64,000 nt of DNA, from positions 1,391,202 to 1,455,201 of the forward strand of contig OZ244046.1 of assembly GCA_965215055.1 (NCBI GenBank), written 5' to 3'. Below the pieces are notes generated by a model, which saw nothing but the letters and a program-made list of their open reading frames with translations, had not been told where the DNA came from and did no database searches. The stretch is from Gammaproteobacteria bacterium. GTDB taxonomy: Bacteria > Pseudomonadota > Gammaproteobacteria > UBA4575. Positions 2,535 through 9,130 of the stretch are shown piece by piece (the first letter of the stretch is position 1; each line of letters begins with the position of its first letter). A program made the translations under genes and the position numbers.

Positions 2535-3848
2535 ATGATCAACATAGACTCAAAGTGTTGCATAATGCGATCTCACTTTTCCCTTCTGGCTCTATGCCTG
2601 TGCCTAGCTACCCTTCAGGCTTGTAAAAGCACAACAAGTCTCAGTGCTCCCATGTTGGACCCCATTTCTGTGCCAACACTCGAAGGCACAAAGCCCATTG
2701 CTTTCAGGAAAATCGTCTTGAAAATCCCCCATCATCGTCCGATTGGTAAGCTATCTAGGGGTCTTCTGTGCCTAAAAAAAGATGATTTTACGCTATCTGG
2801 TGGGCGTCACCAACTGAACACTGATCGGTTCAATGAAATCTTTCACACCGAGCTTCAACTCGCAAACTACAAAGTTGTCGGTGACCCGGATGCTTTGTTC
2901 GAAGACCCAGAGATCAAATCGGCAGAATATTTAATCGCTGGCCTAGTCAAGAGCATAGAGGCGAACGTGTGCTATCCAAAGAGTAGGTCTGGAAATTACA
3001 GTTCCTCGAGTGCGGCGGTCTACATGGAAGTAGAGTGGCAGATTTTTGATGCGTTGCGGCGCAAGATTGTAGAGAAAGTGCACACACAGGGTTCATCCAA
3101 GGTTGGTATAAGCTATAACGGTATTGGGAAGGCGTTTGATAATGCCTTCGCGCTTGCGACGCGGAATCTGCTCGCAGACAAGAAATTTTATCAACTCGTG
3201 CACATAAGCGACGCGGAGAACCAATACACTGATCAAGTTAAAAAAGACAACGACTGGAAGCTTGCAGCTTTGAACACTGTGAAAATATCAACAGTTAATG
3301 GAGAGGTCGACATAGACTTACTGAAACAAGCTACTGCGGTCGTGCGGTCTGCACTCGGCCATGGTAGCGGTTTCGTGATCGGAGAGGGGTTTCTCGTCAC
3401 TAGTGAGCATGTCGTCGCTGGAGCGAAGAAGGTCAGGTTAATTTTTGGTGATGGCGCGGAGATCGATGCGAATGTAGTGATTGTCGATGATCGCAGAGAT
3501 GTCGCGTTGATTCATTTCACCGATAGCTTCATAAGACCTTTGTTGCCCATAAGGCCCACAAGCGTGGAGGTTGGGGAGGAAGTTTATTCGTTTGGTGCGC
3601 CTTTGAGTGAGAAATATAGCGGCACGCTCCGAAAAGGCGTTGTTAGTGCCCATCGCAGGGTCCAAGGCCTCGATTACATACAAAGCGACGCTCCTGTCAA
3701 TCCTGGAAACTCTGGCGGGCCGTTGATCGACAGAAACGGTTCTGTGGTAGGTATCTCGGTGTCAGGTCTTTTGTATGATAGCTCTGTGGAGCAAGGGGTA
3801 AACTTTTTTATTCCTATCAAAGAGGTACTCGCCGCTTTAAGGAAGTAG
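2535..3848 (+). CDS. lipoprotein with unknown N-terminal domain and C-terminal trypsin-like (S1) serine protease domain. True start probably ~2565
   Basis: Lipobox LALCLCLATLQAC. C-terminal GSGFVIGEGFLVTSEHVV...GNSGGPLIDRNGSVVGISVSG (His and Ser active-site motifs of DegP-type proteases). Lower GC than flanking core genes. Confidence 0.6.
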   Translation: MINIDSKCCIMRSHFSLLALCLCLATLQACKSTTSLSAPMLDPISVPTLEGTKPIAFRKIVLKIPHHRPIGKLSRGLLCLKKDDFTLSGGRHQLNTDRFNEIFHTELQLANYKVVGDPDALFEDPEIKSAEYLIAGLVKSIEANVCYPKSRSGNYSSSSAAVYMEVEWQIFDALRRKIVEKVHTQGSSKVGISYNGIGKAFDNAFALATRNLLADKKFYQLVHISDAENQYTDQVKKDNDWKLAALNTVKISTVNGEVDIDLLKQATAVVRSALGHGSGFVIGEGFLVTSEHVVAGAKKVRLIFGDGAEIDANVVIVDDRRDVALIHFTDSFIRPLLPIRPTSVEVGEEVYSFGAPLSEKYSGTLRKGVVSAHRRVQGLDYIQSDAPVNPGNSGGPLIDRNGSVVGISVSGLLYDSSVEQGVNFFIPIKEVLAALRK

Positions 3849-3954: not shown

Positions 3955-4239
3955 CTAGTGCTGCCATCGGTTCCTACACACAGCAGAGTACTTGTCGCAA
4001 CCAGTAGAGGTGATCCAGTCGTTTCTACCTCTATATTCAACCTCAGAAACCTGTCTTTCAGCCTCTCTAGTTCGTCGTGCTGCGTCTTCCATGCTGTAAT
4101 CAGGCCGCCATTCTCGCTCATAACTTGCATTGATTCTGGCTTGGGCTTCATCTATTTTCGGATCGCCTGTAGGCCAAGCTCCCGCATTGCTGAACATAAA
4201 GGCTCCGAATAGCATCAATATCAGTAGTTTAATCTTCAT
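3955..4239 (-). CDS. small secreted hypothetical protein
   Basis: N-terminal signal peptide MKIKLLILMLFGAFMFSNAGA. AT-rich context. Confidence 0.4.
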   Translation of the reverse strand: MKIKLLILMLFGAFMFSNAGAWPTGDPKIDEAQARINASYEREWRPDYSMEDAARRTREAERQVSEVEYRGRNDWITSTGCDKYSAVCRNRWQH

Positions 4240-4433: not shown

Positions 4434-4739
4434 TCAACCTCCTCTTGGTATCTGATCCTCTGGACTTGACCATACATTCGCTATTCTTTTCCAGTGTTCA
4501 TTATTAGTCGGGTTAAAGTCATGGAGGTGGTCATACGAATCTGTGATATTTATCCACGCCTTAATTGCTTCATAGCGCCGGATATACTGCCCTCGCTTTG
4601 TATCGAAAGTCTGCTTTTCCGTATCAGACATGGCTAATCTTATATGTATTTCGTCAATCTCGTCATCTGCCAAGTATACTTTTGTGCATATTCGCTTTCG
4701 GCAGTTCTCTTTCAGGGTTTTCAACTTGCCAAACTTCAT
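4434..4739 (-). CDS. hypothetical protein (101 aa) immediately downstream of the giant NTPase gene
   Basis: ORF from track, no recognisable motif. AT-rich. Confidence 0.35.
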   Translation of the reverse strand: MKFGKLKTLKENCRKRICTKVYLADDEIDEIHIRLAMSDTEKQTFDTKRGQYIRRYEAIKAWINITDSYDHLHDFNPTNNEHWKRIANVWSSPEDQIPRGG

Positions 4740-4817: not shown

Positions 4818-7800
4818 CTAGATTTCATGCTGTGCCTCTCGTTCCTCGTCTTCGGTGTGGGCGTTCTCGATCTCGGTATTGAGTCGGCGAAGCATGGTTT
4901 TGGCCCAGCGTTGCACTTGCCCCCGTGGATGATCATTCAGCGTGCTTAGCGGCGCTTGGTAAAGCTCGTAATAGGCTCCTAATGCTCCCCACCAAACGAA
5001 GGTATGTATATTGCGAGAGATAGCTTGCAGCACATCCTGACGGTCGCCGAACTCGTCGAGTAGCCGCGTCATGACTTGATGCAGCAAGCGTTTGGTGGCA
5101 TCAACTCGATAAGTGTTGAGTACCGGCACGATCGCTGCTGTGAAAGCCGGTGCGCGCTCCGGGTTAGCATGGCACCAAGCGAACAAGGTATCCTGGGGAA
5201 GGCTCAAGATTGGGGGATTCTCCCCGCGCATGGAAGAACCCAGGCCGTTCAAGACAGATTCAAAGTGCAACGCTTGCCTTCGGTCAGAAACGATTGCTTG
5301 ACCAATGAGAGGCCAAGTTATTTCGGGAAAGTTAGACAGCAGTATGGGAATCATAGGCTCCAAAAGCCGCCCATGGTGCTGCTCAGCAATTTTGACCAGC
5401 GCACGCGCCAGCACCAAGGCTATGGTACAAGCGTCGCGGTCCTGCCGGCCATGCTTCAGCATCCACTCAGTGATTGTCTCGAAGTGGTAAGCTACCATTG
5501 TTTCACGCGGTGGCTGTTCCCACCGGGCTATATTTTCTGCAGACTTAAGGATTTGTGGTCGTAGGTCATCGAGCTTATCGAGTGCACCATGAACATACTT
5601 CCCCATTAGGCTCACAGCTACTGCAAACGCTTCCATATTGTGGTCGAGCATCGCATCAAACAAGGGCGCTACCACAGGGGCAGGAACCTTAGCAAGCACT
5701 CCACCAAATTTCCAGCACTCTAATTGTTCAGGATCCAGCAAGCCCTCCTGAAGAGCATCAATAATCAACTCGATATCTGATGGGGTGATGCCGATTCGCA
5801 AACAAATTAGGGGAAGTGCTGATGCAAGCTCGGGCGATTGTGCCGCCTTCCGTTTAAAATCATCCACGACATCTGGATGGTTCTCAACGATACCCTTTAC
5901 ATACCCTGAAAGCAGATCGAAGTTACGCTCTTCCGGCACTTCTACGACAGCGGAGGTGATTGGTTTCAGCCAGTCCAGCGGTGACTCAGCAGAGGTGGCG
6001 ATAGACTTTCCAAAGATATAAGCTTTACGCTGCTGACCTTGGCTGACTCGGAGCAGAATTCTCTTAAGGGTCGCTGGTGGTTGTTTGACGATCTCGACTG
6101 CTAGCACACGCACTGCCTCAGCTTGGCGCTGTTCGAGTGTATCGAAATCTAACTTTTCTTCACAAGGAAAGTCCCATGGCATCTCGGTGACGAGGAAACG
6201 CACGCGCGCTTCTATATCCTTCGGCTGCAGCTTGGCAATCAATGTCTTGACCCGACTGATCATTTCATGATCATCGTCGGTAGCATCGTGCTTGAGGAAA
6301 TGACCAAGACTTTCCAGTGCCTCTACCCACTGATCAACTTTATCGCCTACCTGGTCGACCACTGTTTCCACGGTATCAATGAGACCATGCTCAATCAGTG
6401 AGTGTAGATGACGGCCGAGACTGGCGCGAGCAGCGATACCGGAGTCGTCGTCCTGCTCAGCAAATTGAGCAAGGTACATCACACAATTCTTAATATAGTC
6501 AGTTGCCTTCTCGTTTGTGTCTGGACGCCAATCTTTTAGAGCTGGTCGGGACCCGTGAATCTCTGCGCCCACATAACGCGAGAAATAATCCGTCTTCACT
6601 CCAGCAATCAGAGCTTTGACGACAATAGAGCGTTGTACAGGATTGTTAGTTTTGGTTGCTTCATTCAGGATGGAGAGCCGCGAATTGCCATCGGCGGCAG
6701 TGTTACCAGCCAGCATAGGAAAGAGTGCTTTGAACTGATTGGCGGCGTTGTTGTGGATATGTTGTTTGTTCTCGGCAACTGCGAGGCGTAGCAGGAGTCG
6801 GGTGCCATCCTCAAAGGTGTCAGAACAAAAGGCAATTTTCTCCAGTGCCAAGACAAGGTGACAGTGCACGTCGCCTTTGATCTCCGACAGATTCTCAATT
6901 TCTATCAAGGAGCGCTTAATCTGGTCCACAACAACTCTAGAGTTGATTTCGGCAAAAGCTGACAGCACCTCGGCGTGGTCCGCCTTGTAAACTCCTTCGG
7001 AGCCATCGAACGGTCCATCCCGACGGCAGACATGAGCAACCACTTTCTGGGAAATGTCAGTCGTGTTAAGCAGGGCGAGCTGCCGAGCAGCCCGGATTTT
7101 GAGATTGGAACTAGTATCGCCGGCCAGTACCTCATCCCATTTATCTGGGGTCCACCTTTGCCACTGACTCTCGGCTAGTCTCATGGCGACCGGGCGAGGC
7201 TGAAGAATAGCTAATCTTCCTCTCCGTTGAACAACGCCTCGCTCGGTAAGTTGCTGGAAAGCGTCGTGTAGGTCTTCGACCGTAAGATTACAGCTCACGT
7301 GGGCAATCTCACCGAGTTCAGTTGAGTCCTCTATCTCGACTAAGCCAAATGTGGCCAGTAACGCCGCCGACTTGCGTAACAGGTCGGGCTTATGAGGCTT
7401 GCGTCCCAGGACGAATGCGTCGACAAGATCATGGTCCTCGACATGAGCAACGGGTATGCCCTCAGTCCATGCTTTCCTGATGCGGATGGCGATTCTCGGG
7501 AAGCCTTTGGAGAAATGCACAAGCCGTCGCTGGTCTTCGGACGGCAAGCCCAGTGGCACTTGATTGACGATGGCCTCAATAACAGAAAGTGGTGCCTCCT
7601 CAACCTTGAATGTCATCTTATCCAACGTTTCCAACGTTCCAGGAGGTATCTCGCTGTCGATAGTGACTAGTGAAAGATGGCTACACTCACGCGAAACTAT
7701 GCCAGTGAGAATCCTATGCGTTCCAGGAGTACAACAATCGACGACCACAATGGCGCGCTGCCCCATATCCACCAGATTTTGAACGATGTTATTGATAGAT

Positions 7801-8849
7801 TCCGAGTCGGCCTCGGACTCGTTGGCATAAAGCACGATGTTGCTAACGAAGAGGTCCTCTTCGTTAGCGGAACCAAGAGCTTCAAGTGTCAATCGGGATT
7901 TGCCGACGCCCGATAGTCCGACTATGCGGACAACACCTTTTGGTTTTGTTACCCGCTCACGCAGCCAGGTACGCAACACGGGAAGACGCTCGTCATCGAC
8001 CCGGAGCGAGCTGTCATGCTCGGCGCGACCAGCCCAGTGGGACCAGGAGCGGAAGGGACCAATGGTTCCGGGCTGTGTCTGCTCCTTCACCCAGGTAGCA
8101 ACAGCGGGGTGGCTATTTGTCCACGCAGCGATCTGGTCGGCGTCGCGAAACTGGACTTGGTCATCGTCGATGGTGATACCAGTGCCACGAAGTGCTTCCA
8201 GAATCCGCATTTCTCGTTTTTTGATATCCTTGTAGACGTAACGATGGGCACACAGCATAATGTAGCGACCGCCATCCTCAATAGTCGAGCCCACCATACC
8301 CTTGACCGATCCTGCTTTGGTCAGAACATCGCTGCCTGCCTTGGCCGGCGTAATTTTGCTCGCTTTTAATTGGAACTGATTGAGCCGTGAAGGAAGGAAT
8401 GGTGTATGGTCAGGGCCGTCGTCCCATCTGATGTGTCCGTCTTCGCCTTCATCAGGGGTAGTAATTTTGCTGGCCACATGGACGTTATAAGCTGGCAGCC
8501 CATTGGCTGCGGCTTCCGCATGTAGTATCCGCTCTAAAAATAGGGAGAATGTCCGCTCGGTTAGAAATGCGATGTGCTCCCCTGTCACTTCGAATGGGCG
8601 GTGTTTTACAATGGTGGTCATAGGACGAGACTTACTTCCTTGAAGGGTAGAGATCGCGGCTGGGTTAGCCTTCAGCAACCGCAGCAGGTTAACGACAGAA
8701 GCAGCAGGCTTCACAGTTCCAGACTCATATTTTGTGAAGGCGCGTGGCCCACCACCCAATAGTTCACCGGCCTCTACTTGGGAAAGGCCAAGCTCTTTTC
8801 GAATAGCGCGGATTTCATCAGGGTCGATCTCGTTTTTATTTTCTTTCAT
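4818..8849 (-). CDS. 1,343-aa multidomain protein: N-terminal MqsA-type (XRE) HTH, unknown middle region, P-loop NTPase, ~900-aa alpha-helical (HEAT/ARM-like) repeat tail. Candidate defence-type STAND-like NTPase
   Basis: aa 14-66 IRKELGLSQVEAGELLGGGPRAFTKYESGTVKPAASVVNLLRLL aligns with the MqsA C-terminal HTH (VRKKLSLTQKEASEIFGGGVNAFSRYEKGNAQPHPSTIKLLRVL). Walker A GLSGVGKS (aa 311-318, nt ~7896-7919). Walker B-like AIVVVDCC (aa 366-373). No stop in 4 kb. Confidence 0.65.
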   Translation of the reverse strand: MKENKNEIDPDEIRAIRKELGLSQVEAGELLGGGPRAFTKYESGTVKPAASVVNLLRLLKANPAAISTLQGSKSRPMTTIVKHRPFEVTGEHIAFLTERTFSLFLERILHAEAAANGLPAYNVHVASKITTPDEGEDGHIRWDDGPDHTPFLPSRLNQFQLKASKITPAKAGSDVLTKAGSVKGMVGSTIEDGGRYIMLCAHRYVYKDIKKREMRILEALRGTGITIDDDQVQFRDADQIAAWTNSHPAVATWVKEQTQPGTIGPFRSWSHWAGRAEHDSSLRVDDERLPVLRTWLRERVTKPKGVVRIVGLSGVGKSRLTLEALGSANEEDLFVSNIVLYANESEADSESINNIVQNLVDMGQRAIVVVDCCTPGTHRILTGIVSRECSHLSLVTIDSEIPPGTLETLDKMTFKVEEAPLSVIEAIVNQVPLGLPSEDQRRLVHFSKGFPRIAIRIRKAWTEGIPVAHVEDHDLVDAFVLGRKPHKPDLLRKSAALLATFGLVEIEDSTELGEIAHVSCNLTVEDLHDAFQQLTERGVVQRRGRLAILQPRPVAMRLAESQWQRWTPDKWDEVLAGDTSSNLKIRAARQLALLNTTDISQKVVAHVCRRDGPFDGSEGVYKADHAEVLSAFAEINSRVVVDQIKRSLIEIENLSEIKGDVHCHLVLALEKIAFCSDTFEDGTRLLLRLAVAENKQHIHNNAANQFKALFPMLAGNTAADGNSRLSILNEATKTNNPVQRSIVVKALIAGVKTDYFSRYVGAEIHGSRPALKDWRPDTNEKATDYIKNCVMYLAQFAEQDDDSGIAARASLGRHLHSLIEHGLIDTVETVVDQVGDKVDQWVEALESLGHFLKHDATDDDHEMISRVKTLIAKLQPKDIEARVRFLVTEMPWDFPCEEKLDFDTLEQRQAEAVRVLAVEIVKQPPATLKRILLRVSQGQQRKAYIFGKSIATSAESPLDWLKPITSAVVEVPEERNFDLLSGYVKGIVENHPDVVDDFKRKAAQSPELASALPLICLRIGITPSDIELIIDALQEGLLDPEQLECWKFGGVLAKVPAPVVAPLFDAMLDHNMEAFAVAVSLMGKYVHGALDKLDDLRPQILKSAENIARWEQPPRETMVAYHFETITEWMLKHGRQDRDACTIALVLARALVKIAEQHHGRLLEPMIPILLSNFPEITWPLIGQAIVSDRRQALHFESVLNGLGSSMRGENPPILSLPQDTLFAWCHANPERAPAFTAAIVPVLNTYRVDATKRLLHQVMTRLLDEFGDRQDVLQAISRNIHTFVWWGALGAYYELYQAPLSTLNDHPRGQVQRWAKTMLRRLNTEIENAHTEDEEREAQHEI

Positions 8850-8854
8850 AATGT

Positions 8855-8865
8855 ACCTTAAAGGT
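8855..8865. promoter_or_regulatory. MqsA-type operator-like palindrome ACCT-TAA-AGGT 6-16 nt upstream of the start codon of the giant HTH-NTPase gene
   Basis: Plus strand atgtACCTTAAAGGTcat directly adjacent to the ATG at 8849-8847 (minus). MqsA is known to bind ACCT-N(2-4)-AGGT palindromes. Confidence 0.5.
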
Positions 8866-9130
8866 CATATATTAAATAATAAGCACCATTATGGTATATA
8901 TTTTTTATGGTGTCAAGATTTGATTCTAATATGAGGTTGTTGAGTTCTCTTACACCACCTCTTCTCCTACGCAACCTCTTAATGTATTTCTCGGTGGTCC
9001 TCGCCAGAACTTTGATTGATCACTGATTTCGAGAAGTTGTTCTGAAGAAGGAGTGGGAGTCATGTTGTTTTACCTGAAATAGGGAATAGTAGGCGTAAAA
9101 TAACTTGCTTGTTACCAACCTTTTGTCTTC

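What the first reader, a model, noticed from the sequence alone, without database searches (positions are those of the whole stretch)
8850..8870. MqsA-type operator palindrome ACCT-TAA-AGGT sits 6-16 nt upstream of the giant gene's start codon
The fused HTH is MqsA-like, and MqsA binds ACCT-N(2-4)-AGGT palindromes. Exactly such a palindrome overlaps the ribosome-binding region of the same gene. This predicts tight autorepression, as for a TA antitoxin, and argues the HTH is a functional regulatory module rather than a fossil.
Basis: partly seen in the sequence, partly recalled or inferred. Interest (0 to 1): 0.65.

Follow-up and report, generated by a model that had tools for sequence, protein, structure and literature searches.

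The report
Self-repressor operators of an antiviral gene
The flagged palindrome is real and is probably the weaker of two conserved binding sites through which a giant antiviral sensor-nuclease (an Avs8/PD-lambda-4 relative) uses its own fused MqsA-type DNA-binding domain to switch off its own gene.

Summary
The palindrome is confirmed at + 8855-8865. On the gene strand it reads ACCTTTAAGGT, at -16..-6 from the ATG, and it contains the only Shine-Dalgarno-like element (TAAGG). As a bare ACCT-N2-4-AGGT match it is not above chance in the window (3 found, 1.6 expected).

Comparative evidence shows it is one half of a conserved operator pair.
- In 70 HTH-bearing loci from more than 10 phyla, ACC-N5-GGT is 36-fold enriched in the 100 nt upstream; 53 of 70 loci carry it.
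- The family consensus is ACCAT-W-ATGGT, not MqsA's ACCT-N3-AGGT.
- A second, more degenerate copy sits at a fixed +29 bp and overlaps the RBS or the start codon.
- Eleven homologue loci without the HTH (or, for L037, without a matched HTH N-terminus) have no site.
- Loci with Ser instead of Arg at the residue aligned with MqsA Asn97 shift towards ACCT half-sites.

The gene encodes an MqsA-type HTH, a nuclease region, a STAND NTPase and a sensor region (PD-Lambda-4_A, E 6e-93).

Best reading: the gene represses itself through two operators. The mode is MqsA/Aca2-like, but the protein is not an MqsA antitoxin. This is a new variant of a known kind. It rests on inference only; no binding data exist.

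The parts
8855..8865 (-). O2, the flagged palindrome (gene strand ACCTTTAAGGT, -16..-6). Proposed secondary, lower-affinity operator. It overlaps the Shine-Dalgarno sequence and lies in the predicted 5' UTR (about +16..+26 from the predicted transcription start).
   Evidence: A site at +29(+/-1) bp from O1 is conserved: mean 3.84 of 6 matches against a background of about 1.4. The ACC left half is exact in 28 of 50 loci (chance 9%, p 7e-17).
8885..8895 (-). O1, the primary operator palindrome (gene strand ACCATAATGGT, -46..-36). It contains the -10 hexamer.
   Evidence: The consensus is ACCAT-W-ATGGT in 50 loci (position 4 is A in 48/50, position 8 is T in 44/50). It is invariant in the 7-way alignment of near and mid-distance relatives.
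8888..8893 (-). Predicted -10 hexamer CATAAT, inside O1.
   Evidence: 11 of 12 match to the sigma70 consensus together with the -35.
8911..8916 (-). Predicted -35 hexamer TTGACA, 17-nt spacer to the -10.
   Evidence: TTGAC(A/G) is conserved in 6 of 7 aligned relatives. Across all loci only a subset shows it (5 of 50 with at least 5/6 at this offset).
8856..8860 (-). Shine-Dalgarno-like TAAGG (-11..-7), inside the right half of O2.
   Evidence: Read from the sequence. In loci that lost the ACC half the right half is still GAGGT (L002, L033, L012).
8847..8849 (-). ATG start codon of the giant gene.
8655..8840 (-). MqsA-type HTH domain (aa 4-65). Recognition helix at aa 35-43, carrying invariant Arg36 and Lys40.
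   Evidence: Invariant columns are listed.
7980..8594 (-). N-terminal effector region (aa 86 to about 290). It corresponds to the Mrr-type PD-(D/E)xK nuclease domain described for Avs8A. Invariant D133, E136, D137, Q160, K162.
   Evidence: The PADLOC PD-Lambda-4_A profile covers aa 86-1341. The domain assignment comes from bioRxiv 10.1101/2025.07.02.662641. No Pfam nuclease hit, and the AF2 model here is only of moderate confidence.
7893..7919 (-). Walker A / P-loop GLSGVGKSR (aa 311-319) of the STAND NTPase.
   Evidence: sequence; weak AAA_16 hit, below the Pfam cutoff; G311, K317 and R319 invariant.
4818..8849 (-). Whole gene: HTH, nuclease region, STAND NTPase and C-terminal helical sensor region; 1343 aa; an Avs8 / PD-lambda-4A relative.

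Best explanation
The giant gene encodes an Avs8/PD-lambda-4-like antiviral STAND NTPase with a nuclease-type effector region. A MqsA-type HTH, without the Zn-finger half of MqsA, is fused to its N-terminus. Dimers of this HTH bind two related palindromes in the gene's own promoter.

O1 (ACCATAATGGT) overlaps the -10 hexamer and blocks RNA polymerase. O2 (ACCTTTAAGGT, the flagged site) lies 30 bp downstream in the 5' UTR and overlaps the ribosome-binding site. O2 is proposed to be a weaker auxiliary site that reinforces repression, either by cooperative binding at fixed spacing or as a transcriptional roadblock.

The result would be negative autoregulation: a potentially self-toxic nuclease-sensor is held at a low, copy-number-independent level by a self-contained one-gene module.

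Shown here:
- the identity of the HTH;
- the existence, enrichment, fixed spacing and HTH-dependence of the two sites;
- the overlap of the sites with the predicted -10 and the Shine-Dalgarno sequence;
- a small-sample association between the residue at the MqsA-Asn97 position and the fourth half-site base.

Inferred, not shown: actual binding, the direction of regulation (repression), the relative affinities of O1 and O2, and cooperativity.
For: 1. HTH identity. Pfam MqsA_antitoxin E 8.8e-15 and TIGR03830 66.2 bits. PDB MqsA E 1e-11, with a residue-by-residue alignment. AF2 model against 3fmy: TM 0.87, rmsd 1.1 A; the next best matches are the HTH proteins HigA2, Aca2, Aca10, C.Kpn2I and Aca1.
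2. Site enrichment. ACC-N5-GGT occurs at 9.9 per kb in -100..-1 against 0.275 per kb in the rest of 70 loci, and 53 of 70 loci carry it. In the window the only two ACC-W5-GGT sites are O1 and O2.
3. Fixed geometry. A second site lies at +29 bp from O1, with 23 of 50 loci scoring at least 5/6 at that single offset and all other offsets scoring at most 3. ACC is exact in 28 of 50 (p 7e-17).
4. Dependence on the HTH. Eleven loci lacking the HTH match (10 HTH-less, plus L037 whose match starts at residue 53) have no site in 700 nt upstream. Fisher p = 1.8e-6.
5. Protein-DNA association. Arg36 loci have A at the fourth half-site base in 84 cases, T in 3 and G in 1. Ser36 loci have T in 4 and A in 2. 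Fisher p = 1.6e-4. L035 (His36/Arg40) instead has a 25-bp palindrome with a TCAC-G-GTGA core. L058 carries a different HTH and has ATATCCCA-T-TGGGATAT.
6. Promoter. TTGACA-17-CATAAT scores 11 of 12, with the -10 inside O1. Apart from a stretch further upstream shared with the two closest relatives, only the -35, O1 and O2 align across the seven relatives compared.
7. Precedents.
   - E. coli PmqsRA has two ACC-N5-GGT palindromes 32 bp apart.
   - The P. putida MqsA palindrome overlaps the mqsR RBS and is needed for binding (PMC5422877).
   - Aca2, modelled on MqsA, has a strong conserved IR1 in the promoter and a weak, less conserved IR2 in the 5' UTR (PMC6765145).
8. The HTH is under strong purifying selection: 17 invariant columns within aa 1-65 across 38 sequences of about 60% identity.
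Against: - There is no experimental binding or expression data; everything is comparative.
- The strict flagged palindrome is not above chance in the window. It is not conserved in the closest relatives, L081 and L082.
- The right half of O2 coincides with the Shine-Dalgarno sequence, so part of its conservation has another cause.
- The fourth bases of O2 (T and A) are the ones disfavoured at O1 in Arg36 proteins. O2 could therefore bind poorly or not at all, as was found in vitro for Aca2 IR2.
- A spacing of 29-30 bp is not an integral number of helical turns.
- A -35 at the right distance from O1 is seen only in a subset of loci, so '-10 occlusion' is established only for the window and its nearer relatives.
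- 17 of 70 loci lack an exact site within 100 nt. Some have it further upstream, in front of another gene.
- The HTH-less control is small and distant (26-28% identity).
- The Ser36 association rests on three loci.
Confidence: 0.72

Rival explanations
1. O2 acts mainly or additionally at the RNA level. The palindrome is transcribed into the 5' UTR, and the HTH binds the small ACCU-UUA-AGGU hairpin or duplex-like element and blocks ribosome access to the Shine-Dalgarno sequence. This is translational autorepression, as shown for Aca2. It does not exclude the DNA model for O1.
For: O2 lies downstream of the predicted transcription start and contains the Shine-Dalgarno sequence or, in many loci, the start codon itself. 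Aca2 was modelled on MqsA and carries Arg at the position aligned with MqsA Asn97, as here. It binds conserved RNA hairpins in its 5' UTR to block the RBS (PMC6765145; PMC13551039). Aca2 is among the fold matches of the HTH model, at weak E-values.
Against: The hairpin has only 3-4 base pairs. Folding of the 5' UTR is no better than shuffles (-4.2 kcal/mol, z -0.27). From the O2 variants listed, changes at the outer pair show no clear preference for wobble-compatible substitutions (hand tally, about 6 of 21). A symmetric DNA site explains the same conservation. No Rfam family matches.
Confidence: 0.15
2. The flagged palindrome is not an operator at all. AAGGT is simply the Shine-Dalgarno sequence, the ACCT upstream is chance or a relic, and only O1 is functional.
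For: The window-wide count of ACCT-N2-4-AGGT is at chance. The nearest relatives have degenerate right halves. GAGGT persists where ACC is lost. Aca2 IR2 showed no DNA binding in vitro.
Against: The ACC left half, which has no Shine-Dalgarno role, is exact at 26-31 bp from O1 in 28 of 50 loci against 9% expected (p 7e-17). The peak is confined to a single offset, +29. In several loci O2 is a perfect family-consensus site (L062, L065, L009, L013, L024, L025).
Confidence: 0.1
3. The palindromes are promoter elements, or sites for an unrelated host factor. The fused HTH would then have another job, for example tethering the nuclease-sensor to DNA or activating transcription.
For: The core of O1 doubles as a -10-like hexamer in either orientation. 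STAND proteins with HTH domains that act as transcription regulators are known (cited as nonimmune STANDs).
Against: A shared host factor is unlikely across more than 10 phyla. The sites are absent from the homologues without the HTH. The half-site base tracks the residue on the recognition helix. Divergent HTHs come with different palindromes. A promoter role does not explain the conserved ACC/GGT flanks or the second copy at +29.
Confidence: 0.05

Closest known systems
MqsA antitoxin / PmqsRA operators (E. coli, P. putida)
   Same: The HTH fold and sequence family are the same (PF15731/TIGR03830; 40% identity to the MqsA C-terminal domain over the matched stretch). The operator architecture ACC-N5-GGT is the same. 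Both have two palindromes about 30 bp apart in their own promoter: 32 bp in E. coli, 29-30 bp here. In P. putida the palindrome overlaps the RBS.
   Different: There is no N-terminal Zn-finger/toxin-binding domain and no MqsR toxin gene. The HTH is fused to a 1260-aa STAND nuclease. The DNA-binding residues Asn97 and Arg101 are replaced by invariant Arg36 and Lys40. The consensus half-site is ACCA rather than ACCT, and the flanks differ.
Aca2 (anti-CRISPR-associated autorepressor, phage ZF40)
   Same: Its HTH was modelled on MqsA and carries Arg at the position aligned with MqsA Asn97. It has two inverted repeats: IR1 at the promoter (strong, well conserved) and IR2 in the 5' UTR (weak, less conserved), which is also bound as RNA to block the RBS. 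The O1/O2 conservation pattern here is the same.
   Different: Aca2 is a separate small protein that regulates an anti-defence operon in phages, and its half-sites are different (TTCG). Here the HTH is covalently fused to a defence protein in bacteria. RNA binding is untested.
Avs8 / PD-lambda-4A (E. coli)
   Same: The PADLOC profile matches full length over aa 86-1341 (E 5.8e-93). The published architecture of Mrr-type nuclease, P-loop STAND and C-terminal sensor applies. It works as a single gene: Avs8B is dispensable in E. coli, and no conserved partner is found here.
   Different: The PD-Lambda-4_A profile has no HTH; the match starts at profile position 4 and residue 86. The HTH-less homologues found here (26-28% identity) lack the palindromes. 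The phage trigger and the nuclease activity of this subfamily are untested.
Other self-repressing HTH proteins found as fold neighbours, and fusions known from the literature
   Same: The shared logic is a toxic or costly activity kept in check by an autorepressing HTH. The fold neighbours include R-M controller protein C.Kpn2I, HigA2 and Aca1. From my own knowledge, not checked here: AcrIIA1 and methyltransferases such as M.SsoII carry a fused N-terminal HTH that represses their own genes.
   Different: The HTH subfamilies, operators and fused activities are different. None of them is a STAND/NLR-like immune sensor.

Membership tests
MqsA antitoxin family (type II TA) | C-terminal XRE-type HTH domain of the MqsA subfamily | tested here: met
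   PF15731 E 8.8e-15 (55.4 bits, cutoff 30). TIGR03830 66.2 bits (cutoff 61.8). In both cases only profile positions 60-126 are matched. PDB 3fmy E 1e-11. Fold TM 0.87.
MqsA antitoxin family (type II TA) | N-terminal Zn-binding (CxxC...CxxC) toxin-binding domain | tested here: not met
   The HTH starts at residue 4 of the protein. Profile positions 1-59/64 are unmatched, and there are no Cys pairs before the HTH.
MqsA antitoxin family (type II TA) | Adjacent MqsR (RelE-like) toxin gene in the same operon | tested here: not met
   The upstream neighbour is a divergent AMP-binding enzyme. The downstream small ORFs have no Pfam or PADLOC toxin hit.
MqsA antitoxin family (type II TA) | DNA-binding residues Asn97 and Arg101 (named as important for DNA binding in PMC5422877 and PMC6765145) | tested here: not met
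   The aligned residues are Arg36 and Lys40, invariant in the 38 aligned family members.
MqsA antitoxin family (type II TA) | Binds 5'-ACCT-N3-AGGT palindromes in its own promoter | tested here: inconclusive
   The window's O2 fits exactly, but the family consensus is ACCAT-W-ATGGT. The ACC-N5-GGT architecture and the two-site layout are shared with E. coli PmqsRA. Binding itself cannot be tested with these tools.
Avs8 / PD-lambda-4 (antiviral STAND NTPase) | Full-length similarity to PD-Lambda-4_A | tested here: met
   PADLOC PDLC03991 E 5.8e-93, aa 86-1341 against profile positions 4-1282 of 1283.
Avs8 / PD-lambda-4 (antiviral STAND NTPase) | P-loop (Walker A) NTPase core | tested here: met
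   GLSGVGKSR at aa 311-319, with G311, K317 and R319 invariant. The AAA_16 hit is weak and below the Pfam cutoff.
Avs8 / PD-lambda-4 (antiviral STAND NTPase) | N-terminal Mrr-type PD-(D/E)xK nuclease effector | tested here: inconclusive
   The region is covered by the PADLOC profile and has invariant D133, E136, D137, Q160 and K162. There is no Pfam nuclease hit. The AF2 model has pLDDT of about 50-80 in this region, and the fold search returned only HTH matches.
Avs8 / PD-lambda-4 (antiviral STAND NTPase) | Senses HK97-fold major capsid protein and protects against phage | not testable with these tools
   Known for E. coli Avs8A only.
Aca2-type dual DNA/RNA-binding HTH autoregulators | Promoter inverted repeat plus 5' UTR motif overlapping the RBS | tested here: met
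   O1 lies at the -10 and O2 over the Shine-Dalgarno sequence or start codon at +29 bp.
Aca2-type dual DNA/RNA-binding HTH autoregulators | Stable, conserved RNA hairpin(s) bound by the HTH | tested here: inconclusive
   The 5' UTR fold has z -0.27 and the stem has only 3-4 bp. RNA binding cannot be tested here.

The most novel reading that the evidence does not exclude
The fused HTH makes this NLR-like immune receptor a self-contained feedback device. In the resting state, HTH dimers hold O1 (on DNA) and O2 (on DNA and/or the mRNA leader, as with Aca2) at a fixed 29-bp register. When a phage capsid protein drives oligomerisation of the STAND core, the HTHs are pulled off the operators, giving an infection-triggered burst of receptor synthesis. 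The same module would let the gene move between phyla without needing host regulators.
Probability: 0.12. Interest if true: 0.8.

Novelty: new variant of a known kind. Interest (0 to 1): 0.55.

Why it matters
How bacterial NLR-like (Avs/STAND) immune receptors are kept at safe levels is poorly understood, even though their nuclease effectors can kill the host.

This family, with hundreds of members in more than 10 phyla, appears to carry its own repressor domain and a conserved two-operator promoter. That gives a directly testable model of built-in negative autoregulation of an antiviral sensor.

It also supplies a natural specificity series for MqsA-type HTHs: Arg36 with ACCA, Ser36 with ACCT, and His36/Arg40 with a TCAC core.

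It flags a systematic misannotation. At least one 1345-aa member (P0079) is named 'type II TA system MqsA family antitoxin' in NCBI.

There is a practical consequence as well. Expressing these genes from their native promoters will be self-limited, and deleting the HTH may unmask toxicity or stronger defence.

Tried and rejected
- Bare significance of ACCT-N2-4-AGGT in the window: at chance.
- RNA structure of the leader: not better than shuffles. No Rfam family matches.
- E. coli genomes: no near match to the locus.
- Source organism: P0001 is not on record with contig context and carries no name, so the organism stays unidentified.
- Free-standing HTH proteins of this subtype: all that were examined are frameshifted, interrupted or internally deleted copies of the same fused gene. 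No independent stand-alone lineage was found.
- A conserved downstream partner like Avs8B: none. The two small ORFs have no Pfam hit and no counterpart in the other loci.
- An internal start at Met77 producing an HTH-less isoform: the position is Met in only 23 of 38 sequences and Ile in 10, so this was not pursued.
- A conserved -35 at a fixed distance from O1 in all loci: found only in a subset.
- The nuclease fold from the AF2 model: confidence was too low, and the fold search returned only HTH matches.
- The primary MqsA-DNA structure paper (PMC3023523) is not held. The roles of Asn97 and Arg101 are therefore cited second-hand.
- Literature searches found no description of an HTH-fused Avs8 or of its autoregulation.

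Full report
**Observation.** The + strand at 8855-8865 reads ACCTTAAAGGT. On the gene strand this is ACCTTTAAGGT at -16..-6 from the ATG (8849-8847) of a 1343-aa ORF, 8849..4818 on the minus strand. TAAGG at -11..-7 is the only Shine-Dalgarno-like element, so the palindrome does overlap the ribosome-binding site. As a bare pattern it is not remarkable. ACCT-N2-4-AGGT occurs 3 times in the window against 1.63 expected, and 27 of 100 shuffles reach 3.

**The gene.**
- Residues 4-65 are an MqsA-type HTH. Pfam PF15731 gives E 8.8e-15 and TIGR03830 scores 66.2 bits against a cutoff of 61.8. Only the C-terminal HTH half of each profile is matched.
- The best PDB sequence matches are the MqsA structures (E 1e-11). 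The alignment places Arg36 opposite MqsA Asn97 and Lys40 opposite Arg101.
- An AF2 model of aa 1-296 (pLDDT 64.8) gives a five-helix HTH. Its best fold match is the MqsA C-terminal domain (3fmy, TM 0.87, rmsd 1.1 A). HigA2, Aca2, Aca10, C.Kpn2I and Aca1 follow.
- Residues 86-1341 match the PADLOC profile PD-Lambda-4_A end to end (E 5.8e-93).
- PD-lambda-4A has been renamed Avs8A. It is described as a STAND NTPase with an N-terminal Mrr-type nuclease that binds HK97-fold major capsid proteins and then degrades DNA. Its partner Avs8B is dispensable.
- The reference profile has no HTH.
- The window gene has a Walker A motif, GLSGVGKSR (aa 311-319), and invariant D133, E136, D137, Q160 and K162 in the effector region.
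- It sits alone among housekeeping genes (NadA, ArgRS, PriA) with no compositional break.

**A second palindrome.** Thirty bp upstream of the flagged site, at + 8885-8895, the gene strand reads ACCATAATGGT. It contains the -10 hexamer CATAAT of a near-consensus sigma70 promoter, TTGACA-17-CATAAT, which scores 11 of 12. ACC-W5-GGT occurs only twice in the 64-kb window, and these are the two sites (0.44 expected). I call the upstream site O1 and the flagged site O2.

**Comparative test.** The protein has hundreds of full-length homologues. Every one of the best 120 carries the MqsA domain. I fetched 80 loci from species-representative genomes. Of these, 69 carry the HTH, with 32-62% identity. 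They come from Gamma- and Alphaproteobacteria, Chloroflexota, Acidobacteriota, Gemmatimonadota, Bacteroidota, Cyanobacteria, Nitrospinota, Spirochaetia and others.
- With the window included (70 loci), ACC-N5-GGT occurs at 9.9 per kb in the 100 nt upstream of the start, against 0.275 per kb in the remaining 672 kb. Fifty-three of 70 loci have at least one site, clustered near -45 and -16.
- The distal site has the consensus ACCAT-W-ATGGT: position 4 is A in 48 of 50 and position 8 is T in 44 of 50. Weaker symmetric flanks extend it to about 19 bp.
- Scanning every offset from the distal site gives a single sharp peak at +29 bp. The mean there is 3.84 of 6 ACC/GGT positions against about 1.4 elsewhere. 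Twenty-three of 50 loci score at least 5/6 at that offset, and every other offset scores at most 3.
- The left half, ACC, has no Shine-Dalgarno role. It is exact within offsets 26-31 in 28 of 50 loci against 9% expected (p 7e-17).
- O2 is therefore a conserved element, but a degenerate one. It overlaps the Shine-Dalgarno sequence when it sits near -16 and the start codon itself when it sits at -6.
- In a seven-way alignment of the window with nearer relatives, only the -35, O1 and O2 align across all seven. The window and its two closest relatives also share a stretch further upstream.
- In the two closest relatives (79% and 78% identity) O1 is intact, but O2 reads ACCATAAAGAT and ACCATTAAGAC.

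**Link to the HTH.**
- Ten homologues that lack the HTH (26-28% identity), plus L037 whose match starts at residue 53, have no ACC-N5-GGT within 700 nt upstream. Fisher p = 1.8e-6 against 53 of 70.
- Among proteins with Arg36/Lys40, the fourth base of the O1 half-site is A in 84 cases, T in 3 and G in 1. In the three loci with Ser36 it is T in 4 and A in 2 (p 1.6e-4). MqsA itself has Asn at this position and uses ACCT.
- L035 (His36/Arg40) has a perfect 25-bp palindrome with a TCAC-G-GTGA core instead.
- L058 has an unrelated HTH and carries ATATCCCA-T-TGGGATAT. Its relative L060 has a looser TCCC-N3-GGGA element.
- These patterns tie the palindromes to the fused domain rather than to a host factor or to the promoter as such.

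**What the flagged site is.** In the window, L001 and L069, O2 has T and A at the fourth positions (ACCT..AGGT). These bases are rare at O1 in Arg36 proteins: 2 of 50 at position 4 and 5 of 50 at position 8. They are common at proximal sites, at 7 of 19 for each position. This choice creates AAGG at the ideal Shine-Dalgarno distance. The exact fit to the E. coli MqsA consensus is thus best read as a compromise between operator and Shine-Dalgarno sequence, and it predicts a weaker site.

**Comparison with known systems.**
- E. coli PmqsRA has two ACCTTTTAGGT palindromes 32 bp apart, at -73 and -41 from the mqsR start.
- In P. putida a single MqsA palindrome overlaps the mqsR RBS and is required for binding.
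- Aca2 has an HTH that was modelled on MqsA, with Arg at the position aligned with Asn97. It has a strong, conserved IR1 at the promoter and a weak, less conserved IR2 in the 5' UTR. It also binds the leader RNA to block the RBS.
- The O1/O2 pattern mirrors this. The locus works like MqsA and Aca2 but fails membership of the MqsA antitoxin family. It has no Zn-finger domain, no MqsR gene, and different DNA-binding residues.

**Rivals.**
- An RNA-only explanation is weak. The leader folds no better than shuffles (z -0.27) and no Rfam family matches. RNA binding in the manner of Aca2 cannot, however, be excluded.
- 'Shine-Dalgarno sequence plus chance' is contradicted by the conserved ACC half at a fixed offset.
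- A host-factor or pure promoter role is contradicted by the HTH-dependence and by the residue-base association.

**Limits.**
- Nothing here shows binding or repression directly.
- Overlap of O1 with the -10 is demonstrated only for the window and its nearer relatives. A -35 at the right distance is seen in only 5 to 8 of 50 loci.
- Seventeen of 70 loci lack an exact site within 100 nt. Some of these have near-matches, and some have the pair further upstream in front of another gene.
- The HTH-less control and the Ser36 group are small.

**Verdict.** I found no paper describing an HTH-fused Avs8 or its autoregulation. I rate it a new variant of a known kind, of moderate interest.

Noticed in passing
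L016:2150-6996 and L057:2220-6978: In two Pseudomonadales MAG loci the operator pair sits in front of a PemK/MazF-like toxin ORF (Pfam PF02452, E 1e-14) whose ATG lies inside O2. In L016 the pair is ACCATAATGGT at 2535 and ACCATTATGGT at 2564, 29 bp apart. The HTH-Avs8 gene follows directly, and a MazE-like ORF lies upstream of the operators. The Avs8 HTH may therefore also control a TA toxin there.
   Followed up: partly
L084-L087 (proteins P0123, P0136, P0143): The short 'MqsA-like' proteins (55-135 aa) found with the HTH as query are frameshifted, interrupted or internally deleted copies of the same fused gene. All keep O1 at -44 or -46. No genuine stand-alone HTH of this subtype was found.
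   Followed up: yes
P0079: NCBI names a 1345-aa member of this family 'type II toxin-antitoxin system MqsA family antitoxin'. The label fits only the first 65 residues or so and hides an Avs8-like defence protein.
   Followed up: no
L035:2941-2965; L058 at -64; L060 at about -60: Family members with divergent recognition helices carry different promoter palindromes. L035 (His36/Arg40) has TAAATATATCAC-G-GTGATATATTTA. L058 (a different HTH) has ATATCCCA-T-TGGGATAT, and L060 has TCCC-GAT-GGGA.
   Followed up: partly
window 8945-8978: There is a tandem 17-nt direct repeat (TTCTCTTACACCACCTC / TTCTCCTACGCAACCTC, 82% identity) just upstream of the -35. The region is also alignable with the 78%-identity relative L082. 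Its function is unknown.
   Followed up: no
window aa 70-85 of the giant protein (nt 8595-8642): The linker between the HTH and the nuclease region is predicted disordered but carries a conserved motif, L-x-G-x-K-S-R-P-(M/I). Met77 (Met in 23 of 38, Ile in 10 of 38) aligns with the start Met of the HTH-less homologues. This may be a relic of the fusion point.
   Followed up: partly
L015 and L017 (OZ253555.1); L039 and L045 (OZ246950.1): Some genomes carry two paralogous HTH-Avs8 genes. L015 and L017 have similar but not identical operators (ACCATTACGGT and ACCATTGTGGT), so cross-regulation is possible.
   Followed up: no
window 4434-4739 (-) and 3955-4239 (-): Two small ORFs (101 and 94 aa) lie downstream of the giant gene. 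They have no Pfam hit and no counterpart in any of the other loci, so they are not an Avs8B-like conserved partner. A trypsin-like peptidase gene lies at 2535-3848 (+).
   Followed up: partly
L082:1-668: The 78%-identity relative lies next to an Eco57I/N6_Mtase-type restriction-modification gene, which suggests a defence-island context. The window copy, by contrast, sits among housekeeping genes.
   Followed up: no
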